The position numbers were made by a program, and so were the translations under genes. This document shows, one piece after another, positions 13,611 to 40,418 of a stretch of 64,000 nt of DNA. How positions within the stretch are numbered: the stretch's first letter is position 1; the number at the start of each line of letters is the position of its first letter. The DNA is from a virus: positions 31,356 through 95,355 of the IMG/VR virus record IMGVR_UViG_3300049893_000899. One strand, written 5' to 3'. Under the pieces are notes generated by a model, which searched no databases, was not told the origin of the DNA, and was given only the letters and a program-made list of their open reading frames with translations.

Positions 13611-13827
13611 CTTCTTTGTTAATTAACTTTTCTTCAATCTTTCCTGATAAATTCAACAAAGCCAACTTAGTTCCTTTGTTTTGCATTCCAATTGTAGATA
13701 CTTGTTTATCTGCAATATTTAAGCATTCTAAAATAATGCCTAATTCTTGTTTAGTAAAATCAAATGAAATGAAATCTTCTGGATTCATTTTTGACTCAAC
13801 AACTTGTTCTTTTACTTGATCTTCCAT
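13594..13827 (-). CDS. Hypothetical protein
   Basis: 77-aa ORF overlapping its neighbours. Confidence 0.55.
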   Translation of the reverse strand: MEDQVKEQVVESKMNPEDFISFDFTKQELGIILECLNIADKQVSTIGMQNKGTKLALLNLSGKIEEKLINKEDDIQR

Positions 13828-14764: not shown

Positions 14765-14765
14765 A

Positions 14766-20567: not shown

Positions 20568-20959
20568 TATAATATCGTTACAGTTATATCTTCTTCAGAA
20601 CTAATAACTACAAGACATGAGTTATCATTAAGCTCAATAAAATCTTGAACACCTATCAACTCTCTTGTTGCAGTTAATTTAAAAGAAACTACAATATCAT
20701 TAGAGTTTAAATTATGATTTATTGTTTTGGTAAAATATCCAGTATAGTCTCCAGAGCCTACATCCCAAGATGTAATGTCCTCAGAGTATTTGTTTACTGT
20801 TGGAGGTGGTGTTATTTGAACAATTAGTTCAGATAACAACTTTTCTAAATCACTCAACAATTTCTCTTTTGAGTGACCTTTGTTCTCCTTGTTAGATACG
20901 TTGTCACGTATTCTAACAAGGGTAACCATTAATTCTTGTATTGTTTTAGTAGTTTCCAT
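20567..20959 (-). CDS. Hypothetical virion protein with HNLN motif
   Basis: TINHNLNSNDIVV motif, commonly seen in phage fibre proteins. Confidence 0.55.
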   Translation of the reverse strand: METTKTIQELMVTLVRIRDNVSNKENKGHSKEKLLSDLEKLLSELIVQITPPPTVNKYSEDITSWDVGSGDYTGYFTKTINHNLNSNDIVVSFKLTATRELIGVQDFIELNDNSCLVVISSEEDITVTIL

Positions 20960-26900: not shown

Positions 26901-29900
26901 AACAGCAGTATTTTTAACTCTTTCTCTAGCGTAAGAAAGAACTTCAGTTTTTGCGTTTCCTTGATCTTGGCTAACATTGAACTTTGAAGCTATCATTGAA
27001 AGTATTGGATTCTGATATCCATAACCAATCTCAACCGCAGCCATATTCTGCTGGTTAGCAGTTGCTCCAATACCATCTTGTCCACCCATATTGTCACTTT
27101 TACTTCTAAGCTGAGTGATTGGGTTCATTATATCCAAGAACGACTTATTATTAATAGCATCTAAATCTCTTCCTTGAAGTTCTAATATGTCTTTAGTGTA
27201 ATCATCTTTTAACTCTGAAGCATCAACAGGCGCCATCTTATCTAAGTAAGCTTCAGTATTAGAGGAGTTAAGCATATTATACCAATGATTGAAAAGTTCA
27301 TCGTGCATCTGAGATATAACTCCAGCAGAACTTCCATCAGATTGGTTTGAGTTTCTTATTACGAATTTACCTTGTTTGTTCTTATAAACCTTTATAGATT
27401 TAAATATTAAGAACATCTTATCAATATCATAGTCAGAACCAGTCTTACCCGTTATTGATGGATATAATATTATACTATCTCCAAGATGCGGAGGAAGTAT
27501 ACCTACAATATCAAGGCTATCTATTGAAGATAGTTTTTGTGTAGGAATACGGTAACCTATAGCCTTATTGAAAACATCTTTATTGTTCTTCATTAAATCA
27601 GTTATCTCTTCATAAGACATCTTCTCTAATCCAGGGATGTTCTTGAAGAAACTCAAAGGAACTAAACACTCTCCAGCTTTTCCAGGAAGAGGGTGCATTA
27701 GCTTCGCGGAAGTTCTTCCATCTAAGAACATAATAGAAGACTTTTCTTCTTCACTCATAGAGTTAAGTCCAACAGGAGAAACCTGAACAGCAGAACCTCC
27801 AGGCATAGAAGGGTTAACAACCCCTTTCTGGAAAGAAGATATTACAGATGAAATTATTTGATAACTAGAAGGCCCAACTTCATCTAAGTTGAAAGGAGTT
27901 ATTTCGCTACTAGTTTTTTCTTTAATAAAATCAACAAGCTCTTTGTTGTTCTTTATTGCGTCTACCTTTAATAGTTTTCTTTTAATCCCTTCATTGAACT
28001 TCTTAACGTCTTTTATATTCCCACTATCAAAGTCCAACCCTAAGTTGTTCATAAACTCATAAGTAAGTCTTTCTGTTATTGCAGCTTCAATAGCATCAGT
28101 CTCTTCAAGGTATTTCTCTCCAGTATATTCAACTCCATTCTTGGTGTAGTAAACAAGTCCAGACTTAACGTTCTTCATAAGCTTTTTGAACTGAATCCCA
28201 ATAGAACGTAAAGATTTCCCCTCAGTAATCTTGTTTGGAGTAACTTGTTGCATACCGTGGTATCTATTCTCAAGTTCAATAGCAAACAAATCTTTACCAT
28301 TAATAGCCTCACTAAAGTCAATAGCTCCTTGTGATCCCATCTTAACAGCAGAATCAAATAAAACTTCATCAATACCATTCTTTTCCATATTCTCCAATAA
28401 AGAAGCTAATTCAGTTCCTTTATGGATAGCTGGGATTATTGGAATCATTGAATACTTAAGCATTGTAGGAACGGCAAGTAAGTGATTTAAAGATGCTGTT
28501 CCATCTTCATTAATGTTTGTTGTTCTTGAAGATATAGAATAATGGAAAGGCTTTTGAGGCCCAAACAAGTTTAATGCTTGTTGTTTTTCGTAGAAAGTAG
28601 GGACATGATTCTTGTCTTTAAGTTTCTCAACTAAAGTATTGTTAGATTCATCCCAATCTCCTTGACTTCTTCTGAAGTCAACATATCTATCTAATGTAAC
28701 AAATCCTTGCGCATCTGCTTCATTGTTTTTTAAATAAGGATTATATAACGCCTTGGCTTCAGCTTCAGACATTAACTTAGACTCAACGGCTGTTTTAACC
28801 AAGAAGCTATACAGCCCACCAGAATCTCTTTCTATGTCATTCAACACTGCAATTTTAAATGTAGGCTTGTTGAATATATAAGATTCTTTTGAAGGAGAAA
28901 CTAAAGCTTTATATCTTTTAACAATCTCTACAGCAGACTTAAAGAATCCTGGATGTATAGCGTTAGCATTAAACTGTCTCATATTTAAAGCTGTGTCGAT
29001 AAGAGTTACAGCTTCAAAGGCCACCATCCCACTCATATTTCTACTAGCTAAAGATCCGAAGTCAAACATCTCTTCTCGCATCTCTTTAACAGCAGAATCA
29101 ATTATGTCATTCACAACCTTATCTAATATAGCAGAATTACTCTTGTTGAATACATGCTTACCGTCTTTTGAGTCAAAGATAGCATTAACCTCTTCTTGAG
29201 AACTAAAGTCTAAATCAAGTATTGAAGAATTTTTATATTTTTTGTCGTAATGTTTAATTCCAATAAACTTAGTAAAAGGCATGTTTTTAGCAGCCTCATA
29301 AGCTTTGTATGCCTCTATTTCTGCCTCAAGGAACTTAATGATCTCCGTCTTAATAAATTCAGAGGCAAAAGCTCTTATGTTGCTTCCTGGATTCTTTCTT
29401 CTATAATCAACATACTCTGTTAAAGACACAGAATAGAATCTTTCAATGCCAGCATCAGCAGGTTGTAACATCCTCAAAGGATATATAATACTTCCTGTTG
29501 GATTTCCATTAACGTCAAACTTACCGTTAAACACAGGGCTTCTTAAAGCATTAATTTGTTCTTTGTAGTAAATTGAAACATCTTCAGTTATCGTGTTTTC
29601 TGAAGTATGCTTATTTTTTTCTTCACCTCTAGTCTTGATTATCTGAGAAAAGGAAAGTACTTTTTGAAAGAAACTCATTCCTCCTTTATAAGCAGAAGAA
29701 AATGCGTCTTCACTTATTCTTCCATATAGATTCAATATGTTTCCACCAGGCTTTCTTTTGTTTGCCCCATTCTTAACATCAGAAATAAATCTGTTTGATG
29801 AAGCTTCTTTGTTTATTGAGTAAACATTTTTACCTTCAGCTCCAATAGTATTTTCTTCATGTAAGCTACCAGAGATAATATCTTGTATTTGAGATATCTT

Positions 29901-32132
29901 CAACATAGCATCAATAGGAGATATTACATAGAAAGTATTCTTTAATACAGTCTCAGTTCTTGTAGCTACAGCGTTATAAAGTAAATCTTTTCCGTGATGT
30001 TGTGAACCGGCTTTATTGTAACAATTGTTTACATAAGCTGTAATTAAAGTAAACAATCTAACTGTTTCATCTGGAGTTTTCCCATATTCTTCAAAGAAGA
30101 AAGCTATTGCCTCTTTAGATAAGGAATCTTTCTTTCCTTGAGACAATAATTCATATATAGTATTTACAAGAGAGTTTTGAGCAAGCTTTAACCCAGCTCC
30201 ATCAACAAGAGATCTAGCATACACACTGTTTAAATAAGCTAACTCAGAAGGAACTACAAACGTGTCCTTCTCTTCTATAGAGTCGGTATGAGTCCCTTCT
30301 CCGTATCTCAACAACCTCTCTAATATACCTTTAGCTTTAGGGTCAAGATTTATTGTCCTAATTAAACTCTGTCTAAACTTTTCCTTAGTAGCATCAGGTC
30401 TTGGATTCATTAATCCAGAATAAACTATATCTCTAAACAGCTTTTTTCTTAATCCAGTAAAAGCCATTGCAAGCTCATTGATTTTCTCTTCAATAGAAGA
30501 TAAAGACGTTTCAGAGAATATTCTACTTTGTACTATTGTTTGAGATTGACCACTTCCAACCTTAACATCTTCAGTAGAAGCATCATACATATTAGACTTC
30601 ACGTTAGCAAAAGCATTAAAGAAAGAAGCCTTAAACATTTCAAGATACTCTTTCTCAGCTTTAGTTGAACCTTCTTTTTCAAGAAGGCCAACTATCTGGT
30701 TTAGTTCCGGCTTGATCTTCGCGTATCTCTTCAATGTAGCAACCATATCAGCGTATCTAGTAACTATTGTATACTCGACCTCGCCATCAACCTCTCTTGA
30801 AGACACCTTATTAGATGTTGATTCAAGAATACTATTTAATGTCTTCCACATCACTTTAAATGAATGTGTTTTAGGAAGACCTGTTCTTTTATCTATAACT
30901 ATATTACCTTCAATGTCTCTTTCAAAGATACTTGATAAGAAAGACTTAACGCTTGCATCAACACTATTAATCTGGCTAACAGTATTTGAAGCTTCAAGGT
31001 TATGAACCTTATTATCATAGCTTTCTTCATCATCTCCCTCTTCTTCTGTGCTAACCTCGTCCTCTTTAGGGTCGTTGTTTTTGTCTTCAAATACTTCAAC
31101 CCCAACAGAAGAAGTGTTAGATGTGATATCTGGCTCTTTCTCCTCTTCTCTAAAGACAACACCTTTTTCTTTAAGGTTGGCTTTAAGTAATGTTTTAAAC
31201 TTATCTTCTTGCTGAAGTAGAGCTATTAAATTATCTTTATATTGGTCAGTATAGTTTTCTTTCACATAAGAAACCATCTTGTCAAAAAGAGAATTTCCTT
31301 CTTCATGCCCAGAGAATAAATCAAGGAAGTCTTCCTCTAATCCTTTCTTGTTACTTTTAGCTACTTCACTATTCAACCCAAATTCATCAATTAATATTGT
31401 TGAAGCAGAATCAACATAAGCACTCATTAAAGAGTCGGAAATAGGTCTTCTTATATAAGAAACGCCATTCTCGTTTGCTATTGTAAAGCTGTTTTTAATT
31501 GTTTCTTCAAACTTAATTAAATCCTTCTTATCCTTAAAGTTATCTTTAAACGATTTGAAAGCATTATAAAAAGTATCATTACCAAGTCCAGACTCTCCTG
31601 TCTTTGTCCACTGAATAAAGTCATTGTATATTCCTATTGCAGCATTTAACTCAGAATAGAATAGATTTCCTTTTGACAGCTTATCAAAGCTATCAATAAA
31701 ACCATTTCTATCGTAGCCTAAAAACACCTCAGCAAAGTATAAGATGTTGTTGTGATCAGAAACAATATCAAATTCAGTATTCTTTGATATAGCGTCAATT
31801 AGATTGTTGAAGTTTCCTTCATTAGTAATGTATAGATTTATTATCGGATCTACAACAGACAAATCTAAATTAGGAAACTCTTCTTTTATTTTTGAAGAAA
31901 CAATAGAGTTACCGCTTTTTTTAAGCTCTTCAATACTTTTGAATACGTTTACATCTTTCTCGTTTACTGTATTGAAAAAGAAATTGTTTACTATATCTTC
32001 AGCAAATGGAGCTAATGAATGTTTTTCTCCTTTAGCTTCAGCATCATGGAAAGATGTTGTAGCTATTGTTTCTCCTTTAGCTCTTGCTATAACGCTAAAA
32101 GTTCTCGACGTATTTATTGGGCAACTAGACAT
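20946..32132 (-). CDS. Giant virion-packaged RNA polymerase (crAss-like, double-psi beta-barrel type) fused to a zincin protease domain
   Basis: 3728 aa; GYRIPTQ..SS and GSDYDIDKMF (catalytic Asp motif, nt ~27420-27434), ADAQGF, FVDMAKDP; HELSH...E zincin at ~25296-25310. Confidence 0.9.
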   Translation of the reverse strand: MSSCPINTSRTFSVIARAKGETIATTSFHDAEAKGEKHSLAPFAEDIVNNFFFNTVNEKDVNVFKSIEELKKSGNSIVSSKIKEEFPNLDLSVVDPIINLYITNEGNFNNLIDAISKNTEFDIVSDHNNILYFAEVFLGYDRNGFIDSFDKLSKGNLFYSELNAAIGIYNDFIQWTKTGESGLGNDTFYNAFKSFKDNFKDKKDLIKFEETIKNSFTIANENGVSYIRRPISDSLMSAYVDSASTILIDEFGLNSEVAKSNKKGLEEDFLDLFSGHEEGNSLFDKMVSYVKENYTDQYKDNLIALLQQEDKFKTLLKANLKEKGVVFREEEKEPDITSNTSSVGVEVFEDKNNDPKEDEVSTEEEGDDEESYDNKVHNLEASNTVSQINSVDASVKSFLSSIFERDIEGNIVIDKRTGLPKTHSFKVMWKTLNSILESTSNKVSSREVDGEVEYTIVTRYADMVATLKRYAKIKPELNQIVGLLEKEGSTKAEKEYLEMFKASFFNAFANVKSNMYDASTEDVKVGSGQSQTIVQSRIFSETSLSSIEEKINELAMAFTGLRKKLFRDIVYSGLMNPRPDATKEKFRQSLIRTINLDPKAKGILERLLRYGEGTHTDSIEEKDTFVVPSELAYLNSVYARSLVDGAGLKLAQNSLVNTIYELLSQGKKDSLSKEAIAFFFEEYGKTPDETVRLFTLITAYVNNCYNKAGSQHHGKDLLYNAVATRTETVLKNTFYVISPIDAMLKISQIQDIISGSLHEENTIGAEGKNVYSINKEASSNRFISDVKNGANKRKPGGNILNLYGRISEDAFSSAYKGGMSFFQKVLSFSQIIKTRGEEKNKHTSENTITEDVSIYYKEQINALRSPVFNGKFDVNGNPTGSIIYPLRMLQPADAGIERFYSVSLTEYVDYRRKNPGSNIRAFASEFIKTEIIKFLEAEIEAYKAYEAAKNMPFTKFIGIKHYDKKYKNSSILDLDFSSQEEVNAIFDSKDGKHVFNKSNSAILDKVVNDIIDSAVKEMREEMFDFGSLASRNMSGMVAFEAVTLIDTALNMRQFNANAIHPGFFKSAVEIVKRYKALVSPSKESYIFNKPTFKIAVLNDIERDSGGLYSFLVKTAVESKLMSEAEAKALYNPYLKNNEADAQGFVTLDRYVDFRRSQGDWDESNNTLVEKLKDKNHVPTFYEKQQALNLFGPQKPFHYSISSRTTNINEDGTASLNHLLAVPTMLKYSMIPIIPAIHKGTELASLLENMEKNGIDEVLFDSAVKMGSQGAIDFSEAINGKDLFAIELENRYHGMQQVTPNKITEGKSLRSIGIQFKKLMKNVKSGLVYYTKNGVEYTGEKYLEETDAIEAAITERLTYEFMNNLGLDFDSGNIKDVKKFNEGIKRKLLKVDAIKNNKELVDFIKEKTSSEITPFNLDEVGPSSYQIISSVISSFQKGVVNPSMPGGSAVQVSPVGLNSMSEEEKSSIMFLDGRTSAKLMHPLPGKAGECLVPLSFFKNIPGLEKMSYEEITDLMKNNKDVFNKAIGYRIPTQKLSSIDSLDIVGILPPHLGDSIILYPSITGKTGSDYDIDKMFLIFKSIKVYKNKQGKFVIRNSNQSDGSSAGVISQMHDELFNHWYNMLNSSNTEAYLDKMAPVDASELKDDYTKDILELQGRDLDAINNKSFLDIMNPITQLRSKSDNMGGQDGIGATANQQNMAAVEIGYGYQNPILSMIASKFNVSQDQGNAKTEVLSYARERVKNTAVSIVDAISSFLNGFVDMAKDPFLSYVNINKTTSGMLFAMIRAGVHPMRAMLYLNHPVIFAYSKYGENGMIQYLTSKGIDFSGNDLAAFSKAAEYNFKMKKFKYVKVDVSADSLAKDIKDFNSGSMTTINMSYIISMLKMYHELNSLSSELSTQATELKFDKLSQRSSFELRNRLYKNNANMSKNYLSNNTYLGSLRNSFAKLSVLLNSISIVSNETVTTYISTILNDTSKENIANRKKFYSAIKSIGGLINVEKEMASYVYNKFFASKVFSDSNKNNRMIEDFVAVIEGNVNTDNKVIQVIKKNYEKNREKERTRRQVQNVYRLIAISKTGGEASKEARAAILASNNLEDLTPADKFKLALKFNRGEIHSDLSNEISESFDDAPMPIKIGVLLNYFMTGRTPVSGSSNVIPVTIKFLNRIGYSTALDLAGKMIEESPIFFADQFIDNIILKNQSGSVQDEYQDYYNKMSEFDKIDDEKRTARKIGLLEAKLGANQVIIDPNMKAWGSVTYVDGLPVVKLRSREYLSRDTVIHELSHVFIDISGGAYTSEAMAAYDQAMQTDIADRVSDRYPELKEGSELHRKEVLAVALGLKGTEIFENAEESIFGKIRNWVNKVYNIIKKKLGLDYDAIALMANEVLNSSIYNNMPTINIDEVMENRFNFKSDGPMREAKERYEGSDNAGNFEYNYKKEALDIATNTLIASIRDDENVDLEGFMDGLNKMLSEAVSAASKSGIDTSSGSQNINKMVETIDQIRSEIGKASDFYVLRQLVEMAMDVYNDSIVITDLISSITRDPLRQILDDVDIDGTNPGKMTLEQFYAQHANQQERWDELTQIKKAISILGVFNLISKQISPKLEFASKGSTEDVEIANLSVHVGDIFASLKRFKNIQASLDGGIPDTALQSKIDSELATIKEEYRKIVGIVKRLSGDNSTTKNIEDTLTLPDNPSYAELSDLINKTIGLDAGVIDFEGTKTNVETSEENMTSLENIINRLLAKRYHKQTLNDLSEALRSIERKISEANSSLEKSSKKVLAFTLAFEDRGHINVRMMQARDLFRKIKGGIGSFKDKAVRDNLINIGVQAFQKNKEKWLYERYNTIYKRLSEDERDISSLVLAFCDKKMINDSIITPFVAYLEKAKDNVRIKYQEEFRGKDNLASMYRDYVNKNGWNKTLGVNYEEVNEKFFYVQRVNDEDRLCLVSEYDWMRLEAERQRYIAIGMENYKKALEEYDLKAKQINDRFESGEYDKAQYREYMDLNEQQKKTIKSTYYVGKQIDIFKKENYEKDAKKTDGKGRLIPLPKYKSAKWAALTTEEKKIADGFEILLHKSNGYLEKGDMLINNELPFVGKTSHELYAEGKLKEGFKEGINESIKNQQSKDLDYVNDAEERASNEEAIVRRSTFNGEPIQRPPVKFRDKGIKIEDRSKDILSILMMNYHSAINFEEMSKAAFMGETLKALLREQNINIKEGGKKVITKYFNKAFNTKGNSQRLKAAESVFDEYVLGKRREDMQFGKGYSISKILGTITSISAKAKLNGNIEGGLVNATAGTVSSMIAFKANNLLDSNLIGEASTEYFKNIVDSMKNYSADDAMRTDKLTAITVFFNSRLNFNEAFVQDIMNDKTVRAFFGAAGHMPFAVGEHMISTVLTIAKLKGIRCIAENGEYLKADGTTTPEISEAVSLYDSIIFDEKSRRISISPKVFATTSNFTSRIMRNDKGEIDERSYNNMVSEIGLNISDLISNTQGYYGNRGLSEMDKKVAGPALMSLRKFLPRKMMMTFAGWQYALKDFDTLYNPETGEYDEDLINGNAFGDEAIMGMVTAEIIQIMEGYRKTEGSTAEKVLGGVKAAVGKNDDKVSEIIAYNASRLRWTGIFAGSFYGLYLLSSLVAPGGDDEEGGFIENIRFLSPYIALRVFNELTYFANPGELLRSFNNVSQSFGFISDLAKLAGDLFTGDIDKLPKDLGRIVSHDNYVRLFMDGHLKNKINGLENGNY

Positions 32133-32134
32133 TA

Positions 32135-35100
32135 TTAACAGTTCTTGTTTTTATGTTCATCTATTTTCTTTACAAATATATCAATATTTTCATTTGTAAA
32201 AACATCTACTTCATTATATTCTTCAATTAGTTTATTGTCGATATCGTCAACAGGCTTGATGTTATTAATATAATTGTTAATTTCATGAGCGTTCATAGCT
32301 AAATCTAAATCAACTCCATATATTTCAGAAACCTCCCCAGCAATGCTATAAATAGAGTTATTACTCTTTATGTTTTCAACTTTAACCAAGTTAGATCTAT
32401 TATAAGAAGAAGAAACAGAGAATACTGATTTATTGTTATCTCTTCTCTTGTGAGCTATCACGTGTGTAAATCCAGTTATATTTATAGGCTTAAAAGATTG
32501 ATTTCCAAGATTCAAAGTAAGAGCTTGTACCATTAATTGCTTTCTGTATTTATCAACCTCTCCAGCTATTTTTGTTGAAGTCTTGTAATCAACAATAGTT
32601 CCTTCTCCAGTATTCATGTCAATAGCAATTAAGTCTATTGTTCCTGCTGTCGTTTTTGAAGGATCGTTTGTAGCATTAAATGCGTAAGGAATCTCAGTTA
32701 AGAAATAATGGTTGCCAAATTCTCTTCTTAATATTTTTGCAAGCTTATACGCTTCATCTACAACTTGTCTCGATGAAACTTCCCACTTAACTTTAAGTAT
32801 AGAGTTATCGTTATTGTATTCAGAAGCTCTTTTTTGAAACTTCTTATCATCATATACTGAAACTTTTTTAGCTTCAAGAGATCCAGGGACATCTTCTTTC
32901 ATAAAGTATTCCATAGCATAGTGAAACAATGTACCGAAAGAACCATGTGCAGGATTAATGTTTTTCTCTTTATCATCCAATCTCTCTGTTATTGAAGCTT
33001 CAAACGTTCCAATTTCCTTCTTACTTACTTCATCTTCTAAGATACGATAGTATCTTTTAATTTCATCTGTTCCCTCAAATAGGTCTACAATAATCTTTTT
33101 GTTTTTAAGCTTGTTGAAAGTGTTTATAAACCCAGTAACAAAAACCTTATTTTTACTTTTATGTATATCAATCTTACTTGCGCTAGGAATATAAGTTTTC
33201 TTATTCTTCTTTAAAGAACCAATAAAATCAGTTATAAGCTTCTCAGATTTCTTTATTGATTCATCTGTTGAATCTATCTTCTTTAAGTCTTTATTGTAAT
33301 TAGAAAGCTCTGAATCGCTAAAAAACATTATCTTTTCTTTAATATCGTTAGGTTCAGTTACTCCTGACTTCTTTAACATTTGCAAAGTATCTGAATTCGA
33401 TCTCCCTGCATAGTAAACAGTATTAGGGATATTTCCAACGTCTTTACCTCTTATACCTATAACTATACCCTTGTCGTCTAACATACTTAAAAGATATTCG
33501 TTATCAAGCTCACTATATATGTTAGAGCTATTAAGGTTTGAAGGAGATACGTATTCACTTTTATTTCTTACAGGAAGTCTTTTAATGTCTGAACCTGGCT
33601 CTTGTGCTTTCTTACTATAAACAGAAACATTTCCATCAGCAAAAGGAGTTTCAATATATCCTTTACTTAAAACATAATTAACTACAGCCTGCTCAGAATA
33701 AGGGCCTTGAACGTAAGAACTTGAAGACTTGTTTACATACTGCGTACTATCTAATAGTATCGAAGCTCCAGCTTCAATAATCTTATCAATCTCACTTATT
33801 GTAGCGTCATACTTTTCTTTACTTTGACCTAAAGCATGATTGCCTCCTGAGTTAGAAACAAATACAACATCTTGTTTACTGTATGTTCCGGCATTGACAG
33901 GTATTCCTTGCTGAAGCGCTTTATGAGCATAGTAATAAGTAGATGATTTCCCTTTAGTGTTTCCATCTTCTTGGTAAAGCTCTCCGTATACTTCTTTGTT
34001 TTTTTCTTTTCCAAGATTACCAAAAGCAAACTTAGTAGCTCTTCCTGCTTTATAGTGGTCTTTACCACCTTTGTCCATTTTTATTGCAAATCCTACTTTA
34101 CCTTGAGGCGCATTCTGTTGTGGTTCCGCCCCAACGCCAGAGCCATCTTGTTTTTTGAACCTAGCTTTAAATGCTGCTTCATCACCCTTTATATCTCCAT
34201 CCTTACTATTAACTCTAAAGGTCCATTCTTTAGGAACATTAACCTCAGATTTAATTCCAAGTTTACTTGAAGCCTTAACCCCTGCTTCATCAAAACCAGT
34301 CTGACCTCCACTTACAACTTTCTCTATTTTGTTGTTTAATCTTGGAGATGTAAGTACGGCTTCAAGAAGATCGTAAGTAAACTTATCTATATCCTCTTGT
34401 TTATAATCAGTTAGGTCATATATACCATTCCCAGCTATATTCAGAGTCTTAGCATTAACTTCATTCAGTTTATCAACAATTTCATTAACAAGTTCTGGAG
34501 TTACATTCAAACCTTTTGTTGGTTTTATTCTTAAACTTCCTGTTTTACTATGAGAAACCTCTTGTTCTACATCTCCTATGTTTATAGGGATATATTGTTT
34601 ATCTTGACTAACAACTTCTTTGAATGTTAGTTTTTCTCCAGGAATAGAAAAATCTTTCCCTAAATGTATTGTAGCGTCATGCGATGCATTGTAAGCAGTC
34701 CTTTCAGGATAAGAATTGAAGTTGTTGTTAAATTGAATATCTCCATCAACGCTTCCTATTCCGCTTTGAGCGCCACTATTGATCCAATTATACTTATTAA
34801 TTAAATAGTCTAGCGCATTAGCGTGTGAAGCCTCTTTTAAGTTAGCATAATATTGAATCTTTCTACCTTTAAGCTCTCCTGATTTTAATTTACTTAAAAT
34901 CCATTCTCTTCTTTCTGGTTTAACATCTTTAAATTTGTCAGTAATCAACCAATCTATATAATTCCTTACAGATTCTTCTGTTGAATTTGTTTTAATCGTT
35001 CCAGATCTATCAAAAGAAGCCCAAGGATTTGAATAAGTTTCAACATCACTTCCATTTTCCATAGAATAAATTCTATCATTATCTACAGCTTCTTTAATGT

Positions 35101-35980
35101 TAGCCCCCCTATCATATTTTCCTTCTGAAGTCTTTATATTCGACAAAACAATATTGTTGGAATTAATATCTATTTCTTTATATACATCAACACTTACTGG
35201 AGCCGCTTGTGTTGTAGTTGTTTGTTGTTGACTTACAAACTCTTTAAAGCCTTGTAGATCTTGTTTAGTACCTAATATGTGTATTTGTTCTGGTTCAAAA
35301 ACTACAAATGTGGGAAATTCATAAGTTCCATATTCATCACCAATATCTTCTTTAGAAATAGCTCCATCATTATTTATATCATATTCTTTAATATCTCTAA
35401 TGTCTTCTGCTAATTCAGGATTTTTTGTATTTATTAAAGAAGGTATAACTGTTCTTGTTGCAAAACCCATTATAGAAATACCTTCTTTATTACTAAAGTA
35501 AAATCCTTCACGCTTTCTTGGTACAAAAGATTGTTCACCTAAATAATCTTTTATAAAAACTTCTCCTATAAACTTATTAGTCCCATGATAAACAATATCC
35601 TTTACTTTACTATCAGGAAATATAGTATCAAGGTATTGAGAGTATTGCTCAGGTGTACCTATAGTGGCTAATATAGGGTACATTTCAAACAAATCTAAAA
35701 CATCTTGTCTTACTTCAGGTTGTTGTTGTTCTTCTACTTTCTCACTATATTCTTCAACAATAGAATCAATAACATTTTGAACCTCTCCAACAAACACATC
35801 TCCGTATTCATCTTTAAGATAGTTTATGTATAGATTAGTAACATCAATTAAAGGCGTTCCCTCAGGAATGCCTCCAGTTCTATCTGAGAACTCTTTAAAT
35901 ATAGACCAAAGTACAATGTCTTTCTCTTCTAGCTTTGCATCGAAAGCTTTCTCTGTGTTATTATATAAAGGACAGTTCAT
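32135..35980 (-). CDS. Polyvalent cargo protein: ART-PolyVal-like, DUF4326-like, SLOG (YpsA/MoCo carrier-like), unknown domain, PD-(D/E)XK nuclease
   Basis: IVYHGT/GFYFS/VVFEPEQI; NPW...Y..W...LKG...HA; ERT..N/LNIAGNG/VVSGGQTGFD; GTLFH...E...GTIDL...VDYKT...QL. Confidence 0.75.
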   Translation of the reverse strand: MNCPLYNNTEKAFDAKLEEKDIVLWSIFKEFSDRTGGIPEGTPLIDVTNLYINYLKDEYGDVFVGEVQNVIDSIVEEYSEKVEEQQQPEVRQDVLDLFEMYPILATIGTPEQYSQYLDTIFPDSKVKDIVYHGTNKFIGEVFIKDYLGEQSFVPRKREGFYFSNKEGISIMGFATRTVIPSLINTKNPELAEDIRDIKEYDINNDGAISKEDIGDEYGTYEFPTFVVFEPEQIHILGTKQDLQGFKEFVSQQQTTTTQAAPVSVDVYKEIDINSNNIVLSNIKTSEGKYDRGANIKEAVDNDRIYSMENGSDVETYSNPWASFDRSGTIKTNSTEESVRNYIDWLITDKFKDVKPERREWILSKLKSGELKGRKIQYYANLKEASHANALDYLINKYNWINSGAQSGIGSVDGDIQFNNNFNSYPERTAYNASHDATIHLGKDFSIPGEKLTFKEVVSQDKQYIPINIGDVEQEVSHSKTGSLRIKPTKGLNVTPELVNEIVDKLNEVNAKTLNIAGNGIYDLTDYKQEDIDKFTYDLLEAVLTSPRLNNKIEKVVSGGQTGFDEAGVKASSKLGIKSEVNVPKEWTFRVNSKDGDIKGDEAAFKARFKKQDGSGVGAEPQQNAPQGKVGFAIKMDKGGKDHYKAGRATKFAFGNLGKEKNKEVYGELYQEDGNTKGKSSTYYYAHKALQQGIPVNAGTYSKQDVVFVSNSGGNHALGQSKEKYDATISEIDKIIEAGASILLDSTQYVNKSSSSYVQGPYSEQAVVNYVLSKGYIETPFADGNVSVYSKKAQEPGSDIKRLPVRNKSEYVSPSNLNSSNIYSELDNEYLLSMLDDKGIVIGIRGKDVGNIPNTVYYAGRSNSDTLQMLKKSGVTEPNDIKEKIMFFSDSELSNYNKDLKKIDSTDESIKKSEKLITDFIGSLKKNKKTYIPSASKIDIHKSKNKVFVTGFINTFNKLKNKKIIVDLFEGTDEIKRYYRILEDEVSKKEIGTFEASITERLDDKEKNINPAHGSFGTLFHYAMEYFMKEDVPGSLEAKKVSVYDDKKFQKRASEYNNDNSILKVKWEVSSRQVVDEAYKLAKILRREFGNHYFLTEIPYAFNATNDPSKTTAGTIDLIAIDMNTGEGTIVDYKTSTKIAGEVDKYRKQLMVQALTLNLGNQSFKPINITGFTHVIAHKRRDNNKSVFSVSSSYNRSNLVKVENIKSNNSIYSIAGEVSEIYGVDLDLAMNAHEINNYINNIKPVDDIDNKLIEEYNEVDVFTNENIDIFVKKIDEHKNKNC

Positions 35981-35996
35981 TTTTACACTATAATTA

Positions 35997-38900
35997 TTAT
36001 ATGCAATTTAATCTTTCTAAAATGTTTTCAAGCGTTCTTTCTTTTATTTCTTTTGAAAGATTACCATTATTCTTGATTTTACTTGATTGATCAACAAACT
36101 CTGGTCTATTTTTATCTATTGCCATTGCTTCTATTTTATTAAACAAATCAATAACTTTATCAACTTTATTAGTTACAGTATCTCCTTCTTGAGAGAATGT
36201 TTCTGAACTCACATTGTTGTCTAACTTACCTTCCTTTCTAGCTTTAAAACTGTTTAACTTTTGACTAAGAATAATATTAGTCAACGTTCCAACACCTTTA
36301 AGAATTAGATTAGCAGCCTCATTAGTTAATGTTTCATCGTTCTGTGCCTTTATCTCTTTAAAGATAGCGGCTGTAGTACCATTGCTACTTAGTATCTCTT
36401 TAAGTTTATCTTCGTCAAAAGGTTTAGCGCCTTCTTGTTTCTTAGCTTCGTTTTGTTTATTGACTTGTTTCTCGTATTCTTCATTCAATCTCTTCTCGTA
36501 AGCCTCTTTGGATTGATCTATCAATGATACAGTTTTATACTCATTTGTTAAAGGATCATATTGATAATAAATATCATCGTTTAATAGTTTGGCTGTGAAC
36601 TTAGTTCCACTTTCATTACTAGTGAATAAAGTATTGTCTCCTTTGTTCACTAAAGCTATATTATAAGTTGTTACTTTATTTGTCAACACAGGAACACCTT
36701 CCTTCCCAGAATCTTTACCTAAGTCAACAGCGGGATATCCTTCGTTATGTTCAAGTTTTTGAACTACAAGAGTAACCTCGTTCTCAGTCAATTTATCCAT
36801 TTGGTCCTTTATTTTTTCTGACAACACGCTTCCTTCACCTTCCTTTCCAAGTAATTTAATGTTCATAGAGCTACCGAAATAATCAACCCCATTAACAGTA
36901 ACAACGAACTGAAATACTTTATTGCCTTTAGCAGACTCTCTTATGCCAAATATCTTAGCTACTCCATAAACAGGCCCCTCTCCTCTAGCCTCAGCTCTAT
37001 AAATGTAGTTAGCTAAATCTTGGTAAGGTTGTCTTACTTTTTCTTTATCTTGATATGGATTAAGTAAGTCATATTCTTCTTTTACTTTAAAATACTTAGC
37101 TTCGTTTTCTGCTATAAGTCTTTGAGTTTCTTCAATCTCATATTCTATTGCAGACAATTGAGAGTCATCAAAAGATTCGTCTTCAGACTGTTGAGCATTA
37201 TACTCTTCCTTTTCCTTCAACTCTTGAAGTCTTTTAAGTCTATCATGCAAACCTTCTCTTTCTGATTCTAGCTCATTAAATATGGCAGTTACCTTTTCAT
37301 TATTCTCTTCACTATAATCTACTTCTTTCTTTTTAGATAAGTTTGACTCATCTCCATCAACAGGGGCGCTAACTTTACTTCCTTTCTTCTTTCTAACTCT
37401 CGCAACTTTAACTCTGTTAATAGATATAGAATTAACATTGCCATCAACATCAGCTATAAGAGTAGCTGTTATATTGTTTCCGTAAGATTTAAGTAAAGCA
37501 TCAACATCAGATTCAGATAATCCATTAGCATCAAGAGGGATATCTACTGTTATAGATTTATCTCCTTGGTATATAAGCATCTCATATCCACCATCATCAT
37601 TCTTATAGATATCTACTTTTACGTCAGCCTTTCTTAAACTTGAGTTCTTTTGTTTTCTGCTTTTAATCTTACTGAAGAACTCGTTAATAACATTGTCTAA
37701 CTTAATCTTAAGCTTGAAACTATTAACTCCAATAAGAACAGAACCTTCCATTGTTTCAACAGAAGCAACATTCTCCGGTTGCTGTGGTTCAACAATAGTA
37801 AACCCAAGAGGGTCTTCATCTATTGTGTCTTCATACTCCTCGTCTGTTGTGGTGGATGGTTCTTCAGAAACAGGGACGTCATTTGAAACTTCAGAAGGAG
37901 TAGACGTTCCTTCATTATTTCTTAATTCATTTTGTATTCTTGTTTTATCTTTATCTTCTTGAGTCTGAAGAGATTCAAGGTTTTTATAAACCTCACTTAT
38001 CTTCTTCAAATCATCTTCAAGTAGTTTTTTCTTTTTTAATAATTTATTCTTTTCTTTTTCAGATTCAGCTTTATCAATCTCGCTTTCAATATCAGCAAGA
38101 AGTGTTAATATTTTAAATGTATCATTACGTAAAAGCTCCATATATTCTCCTCTATATCTAGCTTCTAGTTCACTGTTTTTCTTTAAGAACTTTCTTCTTT
38201 TATCAATTAAATTCTCAGTGTCTAATATTGAATCTATAAGATCCCCAAGAGCTTTTTGTTGACTATTGCTTAACTTAGATTTTATTATTGATCCATTAAA
38301 AGCGCTTATTCTTTCATGAAGAGTCTCAATGTCTTGTGGATCATAACTAGCGTCCTTACTTTTCTTTCCTTTAGAATCTTTTGTTCCTAATATAAAAGCG
38401 GCATCATCAAGTAGTTTGTTGAAAGAACCAGATACAGTTTTTAAATCTGTCATTAAAGCCTTTACAGAAGCAGATCTAAACTTTGAAGTTTGATGTCTTG
38501 ATTTTAACTTAGAAATATCTTCGTAATGTTCTTTTAATTGCTCTTTTAATTTCTTGAAGTTATCTCCATTGTATATATCATCTAACATTGGAGTGTACTT
38601 TGAATCCCCATCATGATTTATTTCAGCTATAAGTTCAGCTTTTAGTAAATCAGATTGAACAGGATCAAGTCCCATTGCGTCAACAACAGCGTCAACAGCA
38701 TTCGTTGTCTCTGCTTTTTTCTTGTTTAAAGTTTCAAAATCTTTATTAGCAAGCCACTCGCGAAGATGATCTTCAGCAATAGCCGCGTTCATTGAAACTT
38801 GATCTATATGAGAGTTTTCAGGTTTTGAGTTTTCTTTCTTACTCTCTTCTATCTTCTTCTGAATCTCAACAGCTTCTTCTTTCATCTGTTTAACGCTATC

Positions 38901-40418
38901 ATATTGACCAGTCAAAGAACTATAATCATTCTTCTTACTAATCTTTGTAGCATCGTCTCTAAGTTTTTGTCCAGCTTCAGAATCTTCAGCCATTGAAAGA
39001 TATGCGTCCAACTCTTTATTAAACCCATCAAAATTACCATCTCTTTCGTATCTATCAATCATAGATTGAAACAGCCTTGCTCTTGATATTGCTTCTTGTT
39101 TATTTTGATGATCAATATCACTTCCGGCTTGAGCTTCATTTCTTTTTTTATCGTTAGCTAATACATTTTTTAAATAGTTAACTGTAGCTATTTTTTCTCT
39201 AGCATCTTTAACTTGGTCCATGGTCATTCCTGTTGACTTTGCTTTATAAAAGTCAGAAACATTCCTAACCAAAGGAGAAGAAGACTCCATCATAATACCG
39301 CCTACAGCCCCTTGTAAAGCAGCAGTAAGAGTTCTGTCGTCAGACATTGCATCTTTGGTCTTGTCCCAAAAACCTCTAATATCTAATCCATCAAAACTAC
39401 CTTGTATAGTTTGATCTCCAATATAAACACCAGTCGCTTCTTGCCACCCTTCTTCAATGGCCTCTCCAACAGCATTATCTAAATACCCACCAACTTTTGT
39501 ATTTCTTAATTTGCCAACTGCTTTTGGAACATAGGATATACCTTTCATCAAAGAACTCTTAGTAGCTTGTTCAGCAGCCTCTTTACCGGCTCCAGCCAAA
39601 GCTTTTGCGCCAGTTTTCCCTGCAACATTAAACGCTTTAGAGAACTGAAAGAAGTCTATAGCTATTAATGGAGCTGTTGCTATGAAATGATTCTGAGCAG
39701 CCTTTAATGCCTCTTGTTTAGCAACACTTTCGTCTGCTCCAAGAGCAATCATTCTATCATAAGTTTCTTTCTTTGTTTGTGCTGAATTACCTAAACCTTC
39801 AGACATTCTACTTGCCATAGCAGCGGTAACACCACCAACGAAACCAGCAGCAGCTTCTCCAGCTCCAAGAAGACCTGCGGTAGCAAAACCAAGCCCACCA
39901 GTAAGATATCCTAATCCCATTAAAGCAACGGTATCAGACATACTCCTAGTTCCTTCCATCCACCAGCCAAAGTCAGAAGGATTAAAGCTACCTGGTTTTT
40001 CTGTATATATCTTTCCTGCCAAATCATCAGCACCCTCAACCATTGCGTCGCCAAGTTCTGTAGCCCAGTTTCCAATAGACTTTATATCATCATCATATAG
40101 CGCATCAAGTTCAAACAAGCTACCAACGCTTCTTATTGCTGAACCGGGAAGTCTCAACAATAAACCGCCAACGCCTTTTGTAAATTGTTCAACAGCGCCC
40201 TGACTGTCTGATAGACGTTGATTAAAGTCCATTCCAGACATAGGATTATAACCTGTCTCTTCTCTAAACTCGTCAAACGTTATTCCTTCTGGCATATAAA
40301 AAACTCCAGAAGTAGACGTATTCACAAAATGATCATACATCATTTTAGTTTCATCGCTTATGTTCTTGTTTTCAGCAAATTGCTTGTCGTACTTATTGTT
40401 ATATTGAGGATCTGGCAT
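35997..40418 (-). CDS. Large ejected cargo protein with N-terminal glycine-rich membrane-inserting segment
   Basis: 1473 aa; GLGYLTGGLGFATAGLLGAG; EAIEEGWQ motif; long coiled coils. Confidence 0.7.
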   Translation of the reverse strand: MPDPQYNNKYDKQFAENKNISDETKMMYDHFVNTSTSGVFYMPEGITFDEFREETGYNPMSGMDFNQRLSDSQGAVEQFTKGVGGLLLRLPGSAIRSVGSLFELDALYDDDIKSIGNWATELGDAMVEGADDLAGKIYTEKPGSFNPSDFGWWMEGTRSMSDTVALMGLGYLTGGLGFATAGLLGAGEAAAGFVGGVTAAMASRMSEGLGNSAQTKKETYDRMIALGADESVAKQEALKAAQNHFIATAPLIAIDFFQFSKAFNVAGKTGAKALAGAGKEAAEQATKSSLMKGISYVPKAVGKLRNTKVGGYLDNAVGEAIEEGWQEATGVYIGDQTIQGSFDGLDIRGFWDKTKDAMSDDRTLTAALQGAVGGIMMESSSPLVRNVSDFYKAKSTGMTMDQVKDAREKIATVNYLKNVLANDKKRNEAQAGSDIDHQNKQEAISRARLFQSMIDRYERDGNFDGFNKELDAYLSMAEDSEAGQKLRDDATKISKKNDYSSLTGQYDSVKQMKEEAVEIQKKIEESKKENSKPENSHIDQVSMNAAIAEDHLREWLANKDFETLNKKKAETTNAVDAVVDAMGLDPVQSDLLKAELIAEINHDGDSKYTPMLDDIYNGDNFKKLKEQLKEHYEDISKLKSRHQTSKFRSASVKALMTDLKTVSGSFNKLLDDAAFILGTKDSKGKKSKDASYDPQDIETLHERISAFNGSIIKSKLSNSQQKALGDLIDSILDTENLIDKRRKFLKKNSELEARYRGEYMELLRNDTFKILTLLADIESEIDKAESEKEKNKLLKKKKLLEDDLKKISEVYKNLESLQTQEDKDKTRIQNELRNNEGTSTPSEVSNDVPVSEEPSTTTDEEYEDTIDEDPLGFTIVEPQQPENVASVETMEGSVLIGVNSFKLKIKLDNVINEFFSKIKSRKQKNSSLRKADVKVDIYKNDDGGYEMLIYQGDKSITVDIPLDANGLSESDVDALLKSYGNNITATLIADVDGNVNSISINRVKVARVRKKKGSKVSAPVDGDESNLSKKKEVDYSEENNEKVTAIFNELESEREGLHDRLKRLQELKEKEEYNAQQSEDESFDDSQLSAIEYEIEETQRLIAENEAKYFKVKEEYDLLNPYQDKEKVRQPYQDLANYIYRAEARGEGPVYGVAKIFGIRESAKGNKVFQFVVTVNGVDYFGSSMNIKLLGKEGEGSVLSEKIKDQMDKLTENEVTLVVQKLEHNEGYPAVDLGKDSGKEGVPVLTNKVTTYNIALVNKGDNTLFTSNESGTKFTAKLLNDDIYYQYDPLTNEYKTVSLIDQSKEAYEKRLNEEYEKQVNKQNEAKKQEGAKPFDEDKLKEILSSNGTTAAIFKEIKAQNDETLTNEAANLILKGVGTLTNIILSQKLNSFKARKEGKLDNNVSSETFSQEGDTVTNKVDKVIDLFNKIEAMAIDKNRPEFVDQSSKIKNNGNLSKEIKERTLENILERLNCI

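What the first reader, a model, noticed from the sequence alone, without database searches (positions are those of the whole stretch)
32120..36010. Terminal cysteines on consecutive giant cargo proteins suggest head-to-tail disulfide chaining
Seen: the 1473-aa protein has a single Cys that I can find, at the penultimate residue (...ERLNCI). The next gene product (1281 aa) has only two, at residue 3 (MNCP) and the last residue (...KNKNC). The following 3728-aa RNAP starts MSSCP and has only about 5 other Cys. The upstream 631- and 879-aa cargo proteins show none. The DUF4326-like domain in the 1281-aa protein even lacks the Cys residues that family normally has. Inference: C-terminal Cys of protein n bonds to the N-terminal CP motif of protein n+1, in gene order. 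This would make a covalent train of about 6500 aa that is threaded through the tail in sequence and released by reduction in the cytoplasm: a redox-cleavable polyprotein built from separate genes.
Basis: partly seen in the sequence, partly recalled or inferred. Interest (0 to 1): 0.82.

Follow-up and report, generated by a model that had tools for sequence, protein, structure and literature searches.

The report
Terminal cysteines chain crAss cargo proteins
Three giant proteins that this crAss-like phage probably packs into its particle and injects (the last holds its RNA polymerase) have almost no cysteine except one at each end facing the next protein. Relatives keep such pairs where the genes are separate and lack them where they are fused, which points to end-to-end disulfide links, seen so far in one unrelated phage only.

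Summary
The 1473-aa protein has one Cys (residue 1472 of 1473). The 1281-aa protein has two (3 and 1281). The 3728-aa RNA polymerase protein has Cys4 plus five internal ones. The 879- and 631-aa proteins have none.

- In 35 sequence clusters of Crassvirales loci, gene junctions carry a Cys on both facing ends (45) or on neither (46). Only 8 are discordant, and most of those are explained.
- Fused orthologues of more than 3900 aa have no Cys at the fusion point. The window's own polymerase is such a fusion.
- phi14:2 and crAss001 obey the rule, in crAss001 across opposite strands.

A cryo-EM structure of the unrelated cyanophage A4 shows the proposed bond: gp27 Cys1715 to gp26 Cys5. I confirmed these are the only cysteines of two consecutive genes.

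No disulfide between crassvirus cargo proteins has been shown. Ordered threading and release by reduction remain inference. The DUF4326 remark was not confirmed.

This scan has noted the same rule on other genomes. I found no paper describing it for Crassvirales.

Verdict: real, probably a disulfide-linked ejection chain (about 0.7); a new variant of a known kind.

The parts
35997..40418 (-). First link: 1473-aa protein, positional and N-terminal (residues 17-434) relative of the gp67-like protein that precedes the polymerase in other Crassvirales. Its single Cys is at 1472.
   Evidence: BLASTP to the 1629-aa protein of L009, 5e-14. Its C-terminal 1200 aa have no relative among 1.8 billion representative proteins.
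36003..36005 (-). TGC codon of Cys1472, the penultimate residue of the 1473-aa protein
32135..35980 (-). Middle link: 1281-aa polyvalent-type protein whose only Cys are residues 3 and 1281
35972..35974 (-). TGT codon of Cys3 of the 1281-aa protein (MNCP)
32138..32140 (-). TGT codon of Cys1281, the last residue, followed by TAA, two bases and the ATG of the polymerase gene
35171..35797 (-). Residues about 62-270 of the 1281-aa protein. They are homologous to stretches of metagenomic relatives that overlap their Pfam ART-PolyVal match (ADP-ribosyltransferase of polyvalent proteins).
   Evidence: phmmer 1e-32 to P0028 residues 93-286; P0018 residues 371-567; ART-PolyVal at P0028 139-258 and P0018 424-561. 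The window protein itself does not reach the Pfam model.
34157..34717 (-). Residues 422-608 of the 1281-aa protein: SLOG/YpsA-like domain
   Evidence: phrog_10774, 6e-18; cpYpsA 1e-4, below cut-off; tblastn hits annotated as molybdenum cofactor carrier
32492..32983 (-). Residues 1000-1163 of the 1281-aa protein: PD-(D/E)XK nuclease domain
   Evidence: PF12705, 7.8e-8, above cut-off; phrog_69 exonuclease
20946..32132 (-). Last link: 3728-aa protein, a fusion of the crAss-type virion RNA polymerase (phi14:2 g066-like) with a g065/gp49-like C-terminal part. It has Cys4 and no Cys near its C-terminus.
32121..32123 (-). TGC codon of Cys4 of the polymerase protein (MSSCP)
26730..28952 (-). Conserved polymerase core (residues 1061-1801), with the catalytic GSDYDIDKM motif at residues 1567-1571 (27420-27434)
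   Evidence: 26% identity to phi14:2 g066; invariant GSDxDxD; PDB 6VR4, 2.9e-45
25458..26723 (-). Inferred fusion zone between the g066-like and g065-like parts (residues about 1804-2225). It is free of Cys; no Cys lies between residues 1489 and 2858.
   Evidence: (polymerase core ends at residue 1804; the g065-like match to the 1737-aa protein of L009 starts at 2225)
20952..23024 (-). Residues 3037-3727: region homologous to the separate protein that follows the polymerase in relatives (phi14:2 g065, crAss001 gp49)
40424..43063 (-). 879-aa Cys-free protein upstream of the chain. By position it is a cargo or ejection protein; it is not part of the Cys chain.
   Evidence: No family found. Relatives have Cys-free proteins at the same place.
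43092..44987 (-). 631-aa Cys-free protein upstream of the chain, directly after the muzzle-like 1444-aa gene

Best explanation
The three consecutive genes encode virion-packaged, ejected proteins. They have been purged of cysteine except for one connector Cys at each end that faces the next protein. In the oxidised virion, Cys1472 of the 1473-aa protein bonds to Cys3 of the 1281-aa polyvalent protein. Cys1281 of that protein bonds to Cys4 of the polymerase fusion. Because each link sits within 0-3 residues of a chain end, the product is a nearly linear thread of 6482 aa. It can pass the tail as a fused polyprotein would, and it falls apart into three proteins in the reducing host cytoplasm.

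Shown here: the sequence signature, its order-wide conservation, its coupling to gene splits, and a solved example of such a bond in another phage.

Inferred: that the bond forms in crassviruses, the order of ejection, and release by reduction.
For: 1. Window: 4 of 9 Cys in 6482 aa lie at the facing ends, and none at the two outer ends (p = 6e-7).

2. Cultured crassviruses.
- phi14:2: g067 (1797 aa) has its only Cys as the last residue. The polymerase g066 (2180 aa) has only Cys3 and Cys2179. g065 (1421 aa) has only Cys3.
- crAss001: gp47 has only Cys2339 of 2341. gp50 has Cys5, Cys1334 and Cys2404 of 2412. gp49 has only Cys5. gp47 lies on the opposite strand, so this is not a product of overlapping nucleotide signals. 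These proteins were found in virions by mass spectrometry (annotation; PMC10172136).

3. Wider survey: 80 IMG/VR loci plus phage records.
- In 35 clusters (50% identity), junction counts are 45 with both Cys, 46 with neither, 4 with C only and 4 with N only (Fisher 1e-18).
- Loci recoded TAG=Q obey the rule too.
- In 136 proteins of at least 1000 aa, 156 of 310 Cys lie in terminal windows that make up 0.85% of residues.

4. Fusions lack the pair.
- Proteins of 3890-4720 aa (L006, L008, L020, L026, L045, L046, L065) have one Cys in total, at -1 to -4.
- L026, L045 and L065 align to gp67-like proteins at the N-terminus and to split polymerases further on.
- The window's own polymerase-g065 fusion has no Cys in the fusion zone.
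- A polymerase gene interrupted at the catalytic motif (L078) has no Cys at that break.

5. The pair persists when Cys-rich genes are inserted between the partners (L015; L029 likewise, across an inserted ORF with two internal Cys).

6. 120 relatives of the 1281-aa protein have 167 Cys in 183,817 aa, and 83% of them are terminal. The 27 with both ends tagged are the shortest class (median 1090 aa), as expected of middle links.

7. Precedent: cryo-EM of cyanophage A4 shows a disulfide between gp27 Cys1715 and gp26 Cys5 (PMC12002296). In the genome these are the only Cys of two consecutive genes, at -3 of 1717 aa and at +5 of 1114 aa.

8. The crAss001 virion does contain disulfides, in the gp57 dimer and the tail hub and ring proteins.

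9. The sequence context differs between junction types. C[PIV]N follows the Cys in 20 of 51 proteins after the polymerase and in 0 of 27 polymerase N-termini. This fits specific pairing.
Against: - No disulfide between crassvirus cargo proteins has been observed. The polymerase-related cargo proteins were not resolved in the crAss001 map.
- Assembly takes place in a reducing cytoplasm, and gut crassviruses live in a low-redox habitat. When and whether the bonds form is therefore open.
- Beyond a short motif, the terminal segments are not conserved.
- A few junctions depart from the rule. The Cys is at -18 in L028 and at -32 in L014. One N-terminal Cys in L051 has no visible partner.
- A middle link with two Cys could also cyclise.
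- The junction statistics are dereplicated by sequence cluster but are not corrected for phylogeny.
- Copy numbers of the three proteins per virion are unknown.
Confidence: 0.7

Rival explanations
1. The terminal Cys do form disulfides, but not as an ordered head-to-tail chain. They could pair at random (N-N, C-C, N-C) among many packed copies, cyclise the two-Cys middle protein, or tie cargo ends to portal, capsid or tail proteins. The result would be a tethered network rather than a train.
For: - With only terminal thiols available, chemistry alone does not dictate the partner.
- The crAss001 virion has disulfides among structural proteins.
- The terminal segments show little conserved sequence that could give specificity.
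- L051 has an N-terminal Cys without a visible partner.
Against: - Anchoring to structural proteins does not explain why both facing Cys disappear together on fusion.
- It also does not explain why the outer ends of the first and last protein never carry a Cys.
- C-tagged and N-tagged ends are equal in number in the window and in the four cultured or reference genomes read in full: phi14:2, crAss001, cr118_1 and A4.
- The A4 structure shows a specific C-to-N bond, held by a C-terminal helix docked in the partner.
- Junction-type-specific motifs exist.
Confidence: 0.14
2. The facing Cys form a clasp that is not a disulfide, for example a shared metal ion, or thiols needed only for non-covalent docking of the two ends.
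For: - The comparative data show that the two Cys are coupled, not what chemistry couples them.
- A reducing, anaerobic habitat would favour a thiolate-metal bridge over a disulfide.
Against: - Each junction has only two Cys, and no conserved His, Asp or further Cys is nearby to complete a metal site (logos).
- The one solved example is a disulfide.
- A metal clasp of two ligands at floppy ends would be weak.
Confidence: 0.07
3. The terminal Cys serve separate purposes unrelated to each other. Examples are an N-terminal processing, acylation or packaging signal and a C-terminal signal, or by-products of nucleotide signals at gene boundaries.
For: - N-terminal M-[SA]-C recalls motifs that are modified in other systems.
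- The genes are tightly packed (2- and 16-nt gaps), so boundary sequences could be constrained.
Against: - The two sides are strongly coupled.
- The pair survives opposite-strand placement in crAss001 and inserted genes in L015.
- The Cys position varies (3-6 from the start, 1-7 from the end) and the flanks vary, so there is no fixed nucleotide motif.
- There is no signal peptide before the Cys, so it is not a lipobox (direct reading).
- No HINT/intein or peptidase family was found.
Confidence: 0.05
4. Chance placement of a few Cys in Cys-poor proteins.
For: The proteins have very few Cys, so small numbers are involved in the window alone.
Against: p = 6e-7 in the window, 2e-237 in 120 relatives, and Fisher 1e-18 across clusters.
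Confidence: 0.01

Closest known systems
Cyanopodophage A4 (Anabaena phage A-4L) pre-ejectosome, gp27-gp26 disulfide Cys1715-Cys5 (PNAS 2025, PMC12002296)
   Same: Two consecutive genes encode large ejection proteins. Each has a single Cys, at -3 of the upstream protein and at +5 of the downstream one. Cryo-EM of the virion shows them disulfide-bonded. The sequence signature is the same as at both junctions of the window.
   Different: - A4 is an unrelated phage family (Saffermanviridae), and I found no sequence similarity: no PDB match for the 1281- or 1473-aa proteins.
- A4 has one link, not a chain of two or more, and no RNA polymerase or polyvalent effector in the pair.
- The paper reports the bond as a local stabiliser of a pentameric ring. 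It does not present it as a rule tied to gene splits, nor as a way to thread proteins.
RNA-polymerase cargo block of Crassvirales: phi14:2 g067-g066-g065 (g066 = PDB 6VR4) and crAss001 gp47-gp50-gp49
   Same: - The place in the structural module is the same, after the muzzle-like gene and two Cys-free proteins.
- The polymerase core is homologous, with the DxDxD motif.
- A g065/gp49-like part is present.
- The terminal-Cys rule is the same.
   Different: - In the window the polymerase and the g065-like protein are fused, without Cys at the fusion.
- An extra 1281-aa polyvalent protein tagged at both ends sits between the gp67-like protein and the polymerase.
- The papers on these phages that I could read do not mention the cargo cysteines.
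Fused giant polyproteins of some crAss-like phages (gp67-like + polymerase, or all three parts in one chain)
   Same: The parts and their order are the same. [quoted passage not shown] The disulfide chain would give the same linear topology.
   Different: A peptide bond takes the place of the proposed disulfide. The fused forms have no Cys at the joint and would need a protease, not a reductant, to separate.
Cys-free ejection proteins of Schitoviridae (N4 gp50-gp52, DEV gp71-gp73) and T7 (gp15, gp16)
   Same: Ejected proteins, including a giant virion RNA polymerase, are depleted of cysteine. N4 gp50, gp51 and gp52 have none. T7 gp15 and gp16 have none. The depletion is described as a conserved feature in PMC11445570.
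   Different: These phages have no terminal Cys pairs at all. The crass and A4 proteins keep exactly the facing terminal Cys.
Polyvalent proteins of phages and conjugative elements (Iyer et al. 2017, PMC5512222)
   Same: The 1281-aa protein strings together unrelated effector-type domains: ART-PolyVal-like, SLOG-like and PD-(D/E)XK. Its relatives shuffle these domains.
   Different: That paper proposes proteolytic release of the domains and does not mention cysteines or disulfides.

Membership tests
Crassvirales virion RNA-polymerase cargo block | Giant protein with the two-barrel polymerase core and the catalytic DxDxD motif | tested here: met
   tblastn to phi14:2 g066 (8e-39). PDB 6VR4 at 2.9e-45. 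Invariant GSDxDxD in alignment A1. GSDYDIDKM at residues 1567-1571.
Crassvirales virion RNA-polymerase cargo block | Position inside the structural module, downstream of terminase, portal, major head protein, the muzzle-like protein and two smaller cargo proteins | tested here: met
   PHROGs: terminase, portal and major head protein, and a virion structural protein for the 1444-aa gene. The gene order matches phi14:2 and crAss001.
Crassvirales virion RNA-polymerase cargo block | A g065/gp49-like polymerase-associated part | tested here: met
   Window residues 3081-3688 match phi14:2 g065 (1.6e-10). Residues 3087-3400 match crAss001 gp49 (1.3e-7). In the window this part is fused to the polymerase.
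Crassvirales virion RNA-polymerase cargo block | Proteins physically present in the virion and ejected | not testable with these tools
   Shown by proteomics for phi14:2 and crAss001 only (annotation; PMC10172136). Inferred by homology and position for the window.
Disulfide-linked consecutive ejection proteins (A4 gp27-gp26 type) | Consecutive genes for large, Cys-depleted virion proteins, with one Cys within a few residues of the upstream C-terminus and one within a few residues of the downstream N-terminus | tested here: met
   Window. A4. Relatives.
Disulfide-linked consecutive ejection proteins (A4 gp27-gp26 type) | The disulfide is seen in the virion | not testable with these tools
   Seen by cryo-EM in A4 only. 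No structure or redox gel exists for this phage or any crassvirus cargo.
Disulfide-linked consecutive ejection proteins (A4 gp27-gp26 type) | The C-terminal segment of the upstream protein docks on the downstream protein | not tested
The last 20-30 residues of both upstream proteins read as amphipathic helix; this is my reading only.
Disulfide-linked consecutive ejection proteins (A4 gp27-gp26 type) | Sequence homology to A4 gp26 or gp27 | tested here: not met
   There was no PDB sequence match for the 1281-aa or 1473-aa protein at E <= 0.01. I did not check that the PDB copy holds the A4 chains. The likeness is one of mechanism, not of family.
Polyvalent proteins (Iyer et al. 2017) | Several unrelated effector-type domains in one phage polypeptide, shuffled among relatives | tested here: met
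   PD-(D/E)XK. SLOG-like phrog_10774. An ART-PolyVal-like region shown by transitive homology. Relatives carry these domains at different positions.
   No DUF4326 hit at E <= 10.
Split inteins / protein trans-splicing | HINT domain halves flanking the junction, with a Cys as first residue of the intein and of the C-extein | tested here: not met
   No HINT or intein family in Pfam for any of the three proteins. The Cys are 0-3 residues from the ends, so there is no room for intein halves.
Bacterial lipoproteins | Signal peptide with a lipobox before the Cys | tested here: not met
   The Cys is at residue 3 or 4, directly after the start, with no hydrophobic leader.

The most novel reading that the evidence does not exclude
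The terminal Cys tags form a modular coupling system. Any effector gene that carries an N-terminal M-[SA]-C tag and a C-terminal Cys tag can be plugged into the injected thread, as the 1281-aa polyvalent protein is here. Junction-specific flanking motifs would set the order. The phage would then deliver a programmable, redox-cleavable train of enzymes and its RNA polymerase in fixed stoichiometry. The same principle may extend to other podophages, A4 being the first example.
Probability: 0.35. Interest if true: 0.88.

Novelty: new variant of a known kind. Interest (0 to 1): 0.75.

Why it matters
Crassviruses are the most abundant phages of the human gut. They must push several megadaltons of protein, including a giant RNA polymerase, through a narrow tail before the DNA. 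How the order and stoichiometry of that cargo are set is an open question; the crAss001 paper says order is 'likely' set by packing and mutual interactions.

A disulfide-linked thread would answer both points. It would explain why split and fused gene layouts are interchangeable in evolution. It would explain the extreme purge of cysteine from these proteins. It would also give release without a protease.

The idea can be tested directly with cultured phages (phi14:2, crAss001) by a non-reducing gel and disulfide mapping. It also suggests a natural design for redox-released protein delivery.

Tried and rejected
I could not read the neighbours of the 120 metagenomic relatives and used IMG/VR loci instead.
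- Close relatives of this phage were not found. Megablast of 31000-37000 against phages found nothing. The search for related loci with the 1281-aa protein alone found nothing.
- The 1473-aa protein has no word-index relative but itself. Its last 1200 aa have no relative among 1.8 billion representatives. The ESM Atlas gave only unnamed viral clusters. Direct orthologue conservation of Cys1472 therefore rests on positional orthologues.
- I looked for the SLOG-like domain fused into crAss001 gp50 as a further split-versus-fused example. BLASTP found no such match in the reference strain, so I dropped that argument. The hits to PhiCrAssBcn phages were not followed up.
- DUF4326 was not found.
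- Rejected readings: intein, lipoprotein, metal site and nucleotide-signal. See the rivals and the membership test.
- The first literature search was swamped by Neurospora crassa.
- Later searches found no paper on cargo cysteines in Crassvirales or polyvalent proteins. The library lacks most subscription journals.

Full report
**What is in the window.** The window is the structural half of a crAss-like phage genome. The exact protein look-up places it on a 95-kb contig.
- On the minus strand lie terminase, portal and major head protein (PHROGs), then a 1444-aa muzzle-like virion protein.
- Five large genes follow, of 631, 879, 1473, 1281 and 3728 aa.
- The 3728-aa protein carries the crAss-type virion RNA polymerase core. 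It is 26% identical to phi14:2 g066 over 741 residues and matches PDB 6VR4 at 2.9e-45. The catalytic GSDYDIDKM motif is at residues 1567-1571.
- Its last 650 residues match the separate protein that follows the polymerase in relatives: phi14:2 g065 and crAss001 gp49. It is therefore a polymerase-g065 fusion.
- The 1473-aa protein resembles gp67-like proteins only in its first 430 residues. The rest is an orphan.
- The 1281-aa protein is a polyvalent-type effector. It has an ART-PolyVal-like region, a SLOG-like domain and a PD-(D/E)XK nuclease domain.

**The observation.**
- The 1473-aa protein has one Cys, at 1472. The 1281-aa protein has Cys3 and Cys1281. The polymerase protein has Cys4 and five internal Cys. 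The 879- and 631-aa proteins have none.
- The four terminal codons were read in the DNA.
- The starts are the first ATG after the upstream stop. The next Met lies 100 and 236 residues in.
- Four of nine Cys within 18 terminal positions per protein has a binomial probability of 6e-7.
- The DUF4326 remark could not be reproduced.

Cultured and reference crassviruses follow the rule.
- phi14:2: all four Cys in 5398 aa of g067, g066 and g065 are terminal and face each other.
- crAss001: gp47 has only Cys2339 of 2341, gp50 has Cys5 and Cys2404 of 2412 (plus one internal), and gp49 has only Cys5. gp47 is on the other strand.
- cr118_1 has one pair (Cys4943 of 4946, then Cys3). In cr110_1 the pair appears once the start is moved to the MSC at Met15.

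I then fetched 80 IMG/VR loci with a polymerase-core alignment and read all plus-strand ORFs. For 17 loci this needed TAG=Q.
- Dereplicated to 35 clusters at 50% identity, junctions between large ORFs split into 45 with Cys on both facing ends, 46 with neither, 4 with C only and 4 with N only (Fisher 1e-18).
- Six of the eight discordant junctions are explained. In L015 and L029 an unrelated gene is inserted between the partners, so the pair is simply bridged. In L003 the start is set too far upstream. In L028 the Cys is at -18. L014, a discordant junction at the 80% level only, has the Cys at -32.
- L051 keeps one N-terminal Cys without a visible partner.
- In 136 complete proteins of at least 1000 aa, Cys is 0.108% of residues. 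Half of these Cys lie in terminal windows that make up 0.85% of the sequence.

**Fusions and other controls.**
- Where the gp67-like protein and the polymerase are one gene, the whole protein of 3890-4720 aa has a single Cys at -1 to -4. The next protein has Cys3-5 (L006, L008, L020, L026, L045, L046, L065).
- These are true fusions. L026, L045 and L065 match gp67-like proteins at the N-terminus and split polymerases further on.
- The window gives the mirror case. Its polymerase-g065 joint, between residues 1804 and 2225, lies in a Cys-free stretch from 1489 to 2858.
- A polymerase gene interrupted inside the catalytic motif by about 940 nt (L078) has no Cys at that break. One would expect this if the two parts are joined before or during translation.
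- Extra modules tagged at both ends occur elsewhere: the 1167-aa protein in L008, 871 aa in L051 and 345 aa in L033.
- Among 120 metagenomic relatives of the 1281-aa protein, 83% of all 167 Cys are terminal. The 27 relatives tagged at both ends are the shortest class.
- The outer ends of the first and last protein never carry a Cys.

**What chemistry?** Sequence comparison shows that the two Cys are functionally coupled. It does not show what couples them.
The paper shows a disulfide between gp27 Cys1715 and gp26 Cys5, with the C-terminal helix of gp27 lying in a cleft of gp26.
- In the A-4L genome these are the only cysteines of two consecutive genes, at -3 of 1717 aa and at +5 of 1114 aa. 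That is the window's signature in an unrelated podophage, with the bond seen.
- The crAss001 virion also contains disulfides among structural proteins.
- No conserved His, Asp or extra Cys flanks the junction Cys. This argues against a metal site.
- No intein, peptidase or lipobox features are present.

**Why only at the ends?**
- Ejected proteins of N4 and T7 have no Cys at all. This purge is a described feature of Schitoviridae (PMC11445570).
- Crassvirus cargo shares the purge but keeps the facing terminal Cys.
- A link within 0-7 residues of each end leaves the joined product nearly linear. It could therefore pass the constrictions that force partial unfolding of cargo. This last point is my inference.

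**Specificity.**
- The N-terminal context differs by junction. Polymerase N-termini read M-[SA]-C-x-[IV]. Proteins after the polymerase often read C-[PIV]-N: 20 of 51 against 0 of 27 (p = 6e-5, not phylogenetically corrected).
- Both N-termini in the window are of the C-P type.
- This fits ordered pairing but does not prove it.

**What remains open.** No crassvirus cargo disulfide has been seen. Also unknown are when the bonds form, how many copies of each protein are packed, and whether the two-Cys middle link can cyclise. I could not run a co-fold.

**Literature.** I found no paper that describes the rule for Crassvirales or polyvalent proteins. The searchable library is incomplete.

**Earlier notes of this scan.** This scan has recorded the same rule on many other crAss-like genomes. 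I re-derived it here independently before reading those notes, and took from them only the A4 lead.

**Verdict.** The feature is real and conserved across the order. It is most likely a head-to-tail disulfide chain of ejected proteins (about 0.7). It is a multi-link variant, including a polymerase and an effector, of a bond documented once in phage A4.

Noticed in passing
L078:11476-12419 (also L029:11920-11977): In some IMG/VR relatives the polymerase gene is interrupted. L078 has a gap of about 940 nt exactly inside the catalytic GSD|FDVDKM motif, which looks like an intron or a similar insertion. L029 is split about 60 nt apart. Neither break carries terminal Cys.
   Followed up: partly
L029:15738-17459 and L051:13122-16607: Two ORFs (573 and 1161 aa) with similar N-termini (MSKNIEVEGGEIAI / MNKHIEAEGNELVM) sit inside the polymerase block. 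Each has two internal Cys seven residues apart and no terminal Cys. They look like an inserted module that is not part of the chain.
   Followed up: no
L051:16677-19292: An 871-aa protein has Cys3 and a last-residue Cys, but no C-terminal Cys is visible on the preceding chain protein. This is the one unexplained exception to the pairing rule.
   Followed up: partly
L004, L054, L059, L060, L069-L077, L079, L080, L082, L085: 17 related loci give whole cargo genes only if TAG is read as Gln (NCBI table 15). The terminal-Cys rule holds there too.
   Followed up: yes
L083:1-11997: A polymerase-containing ORF of at least 3998 aa (open at the 5' end) has no Cys at all, and no tagged ORF of 300 aa or more follows it. 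It may be a fully fused form with no partner.
   Followed up: no
window 13796-17312 (-): Two proteins of the tail-fibre region also end with Cys. The 848-aa protein has Cys844 (...NIYCAAKS). The overlapping 360/373-aa ORF ends ...KRTSC. Both have other Cys. crAss001 tail hub proteins are disulfide-bonded, so these may be structural links of a different kind.
   Followed up: no
window 35997-39599 (-): The last 1200 residues of the 1473-aa protein have no detectable relative among 1.8 billion representative proteins.
   Followed up: yes
L088:3729-4319 (T7 gene 14): T7 gp14 has one Cys, at residue 2 (MCW...), while gp15 and gp16 have none. N4 gp54, next to the Cys-free ejection genes, starts MSC.
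   Followed up: no
N-termini of proteins after the polymerase, e.g. L026:14034, L040:5180, L049:14282, L054:14229: There is a recurrent N-terminal motif, C-P-N-[IVLKT]-[NS]-x-x-E-W. It may be a small docking element of the last link.
   Followed up: partly
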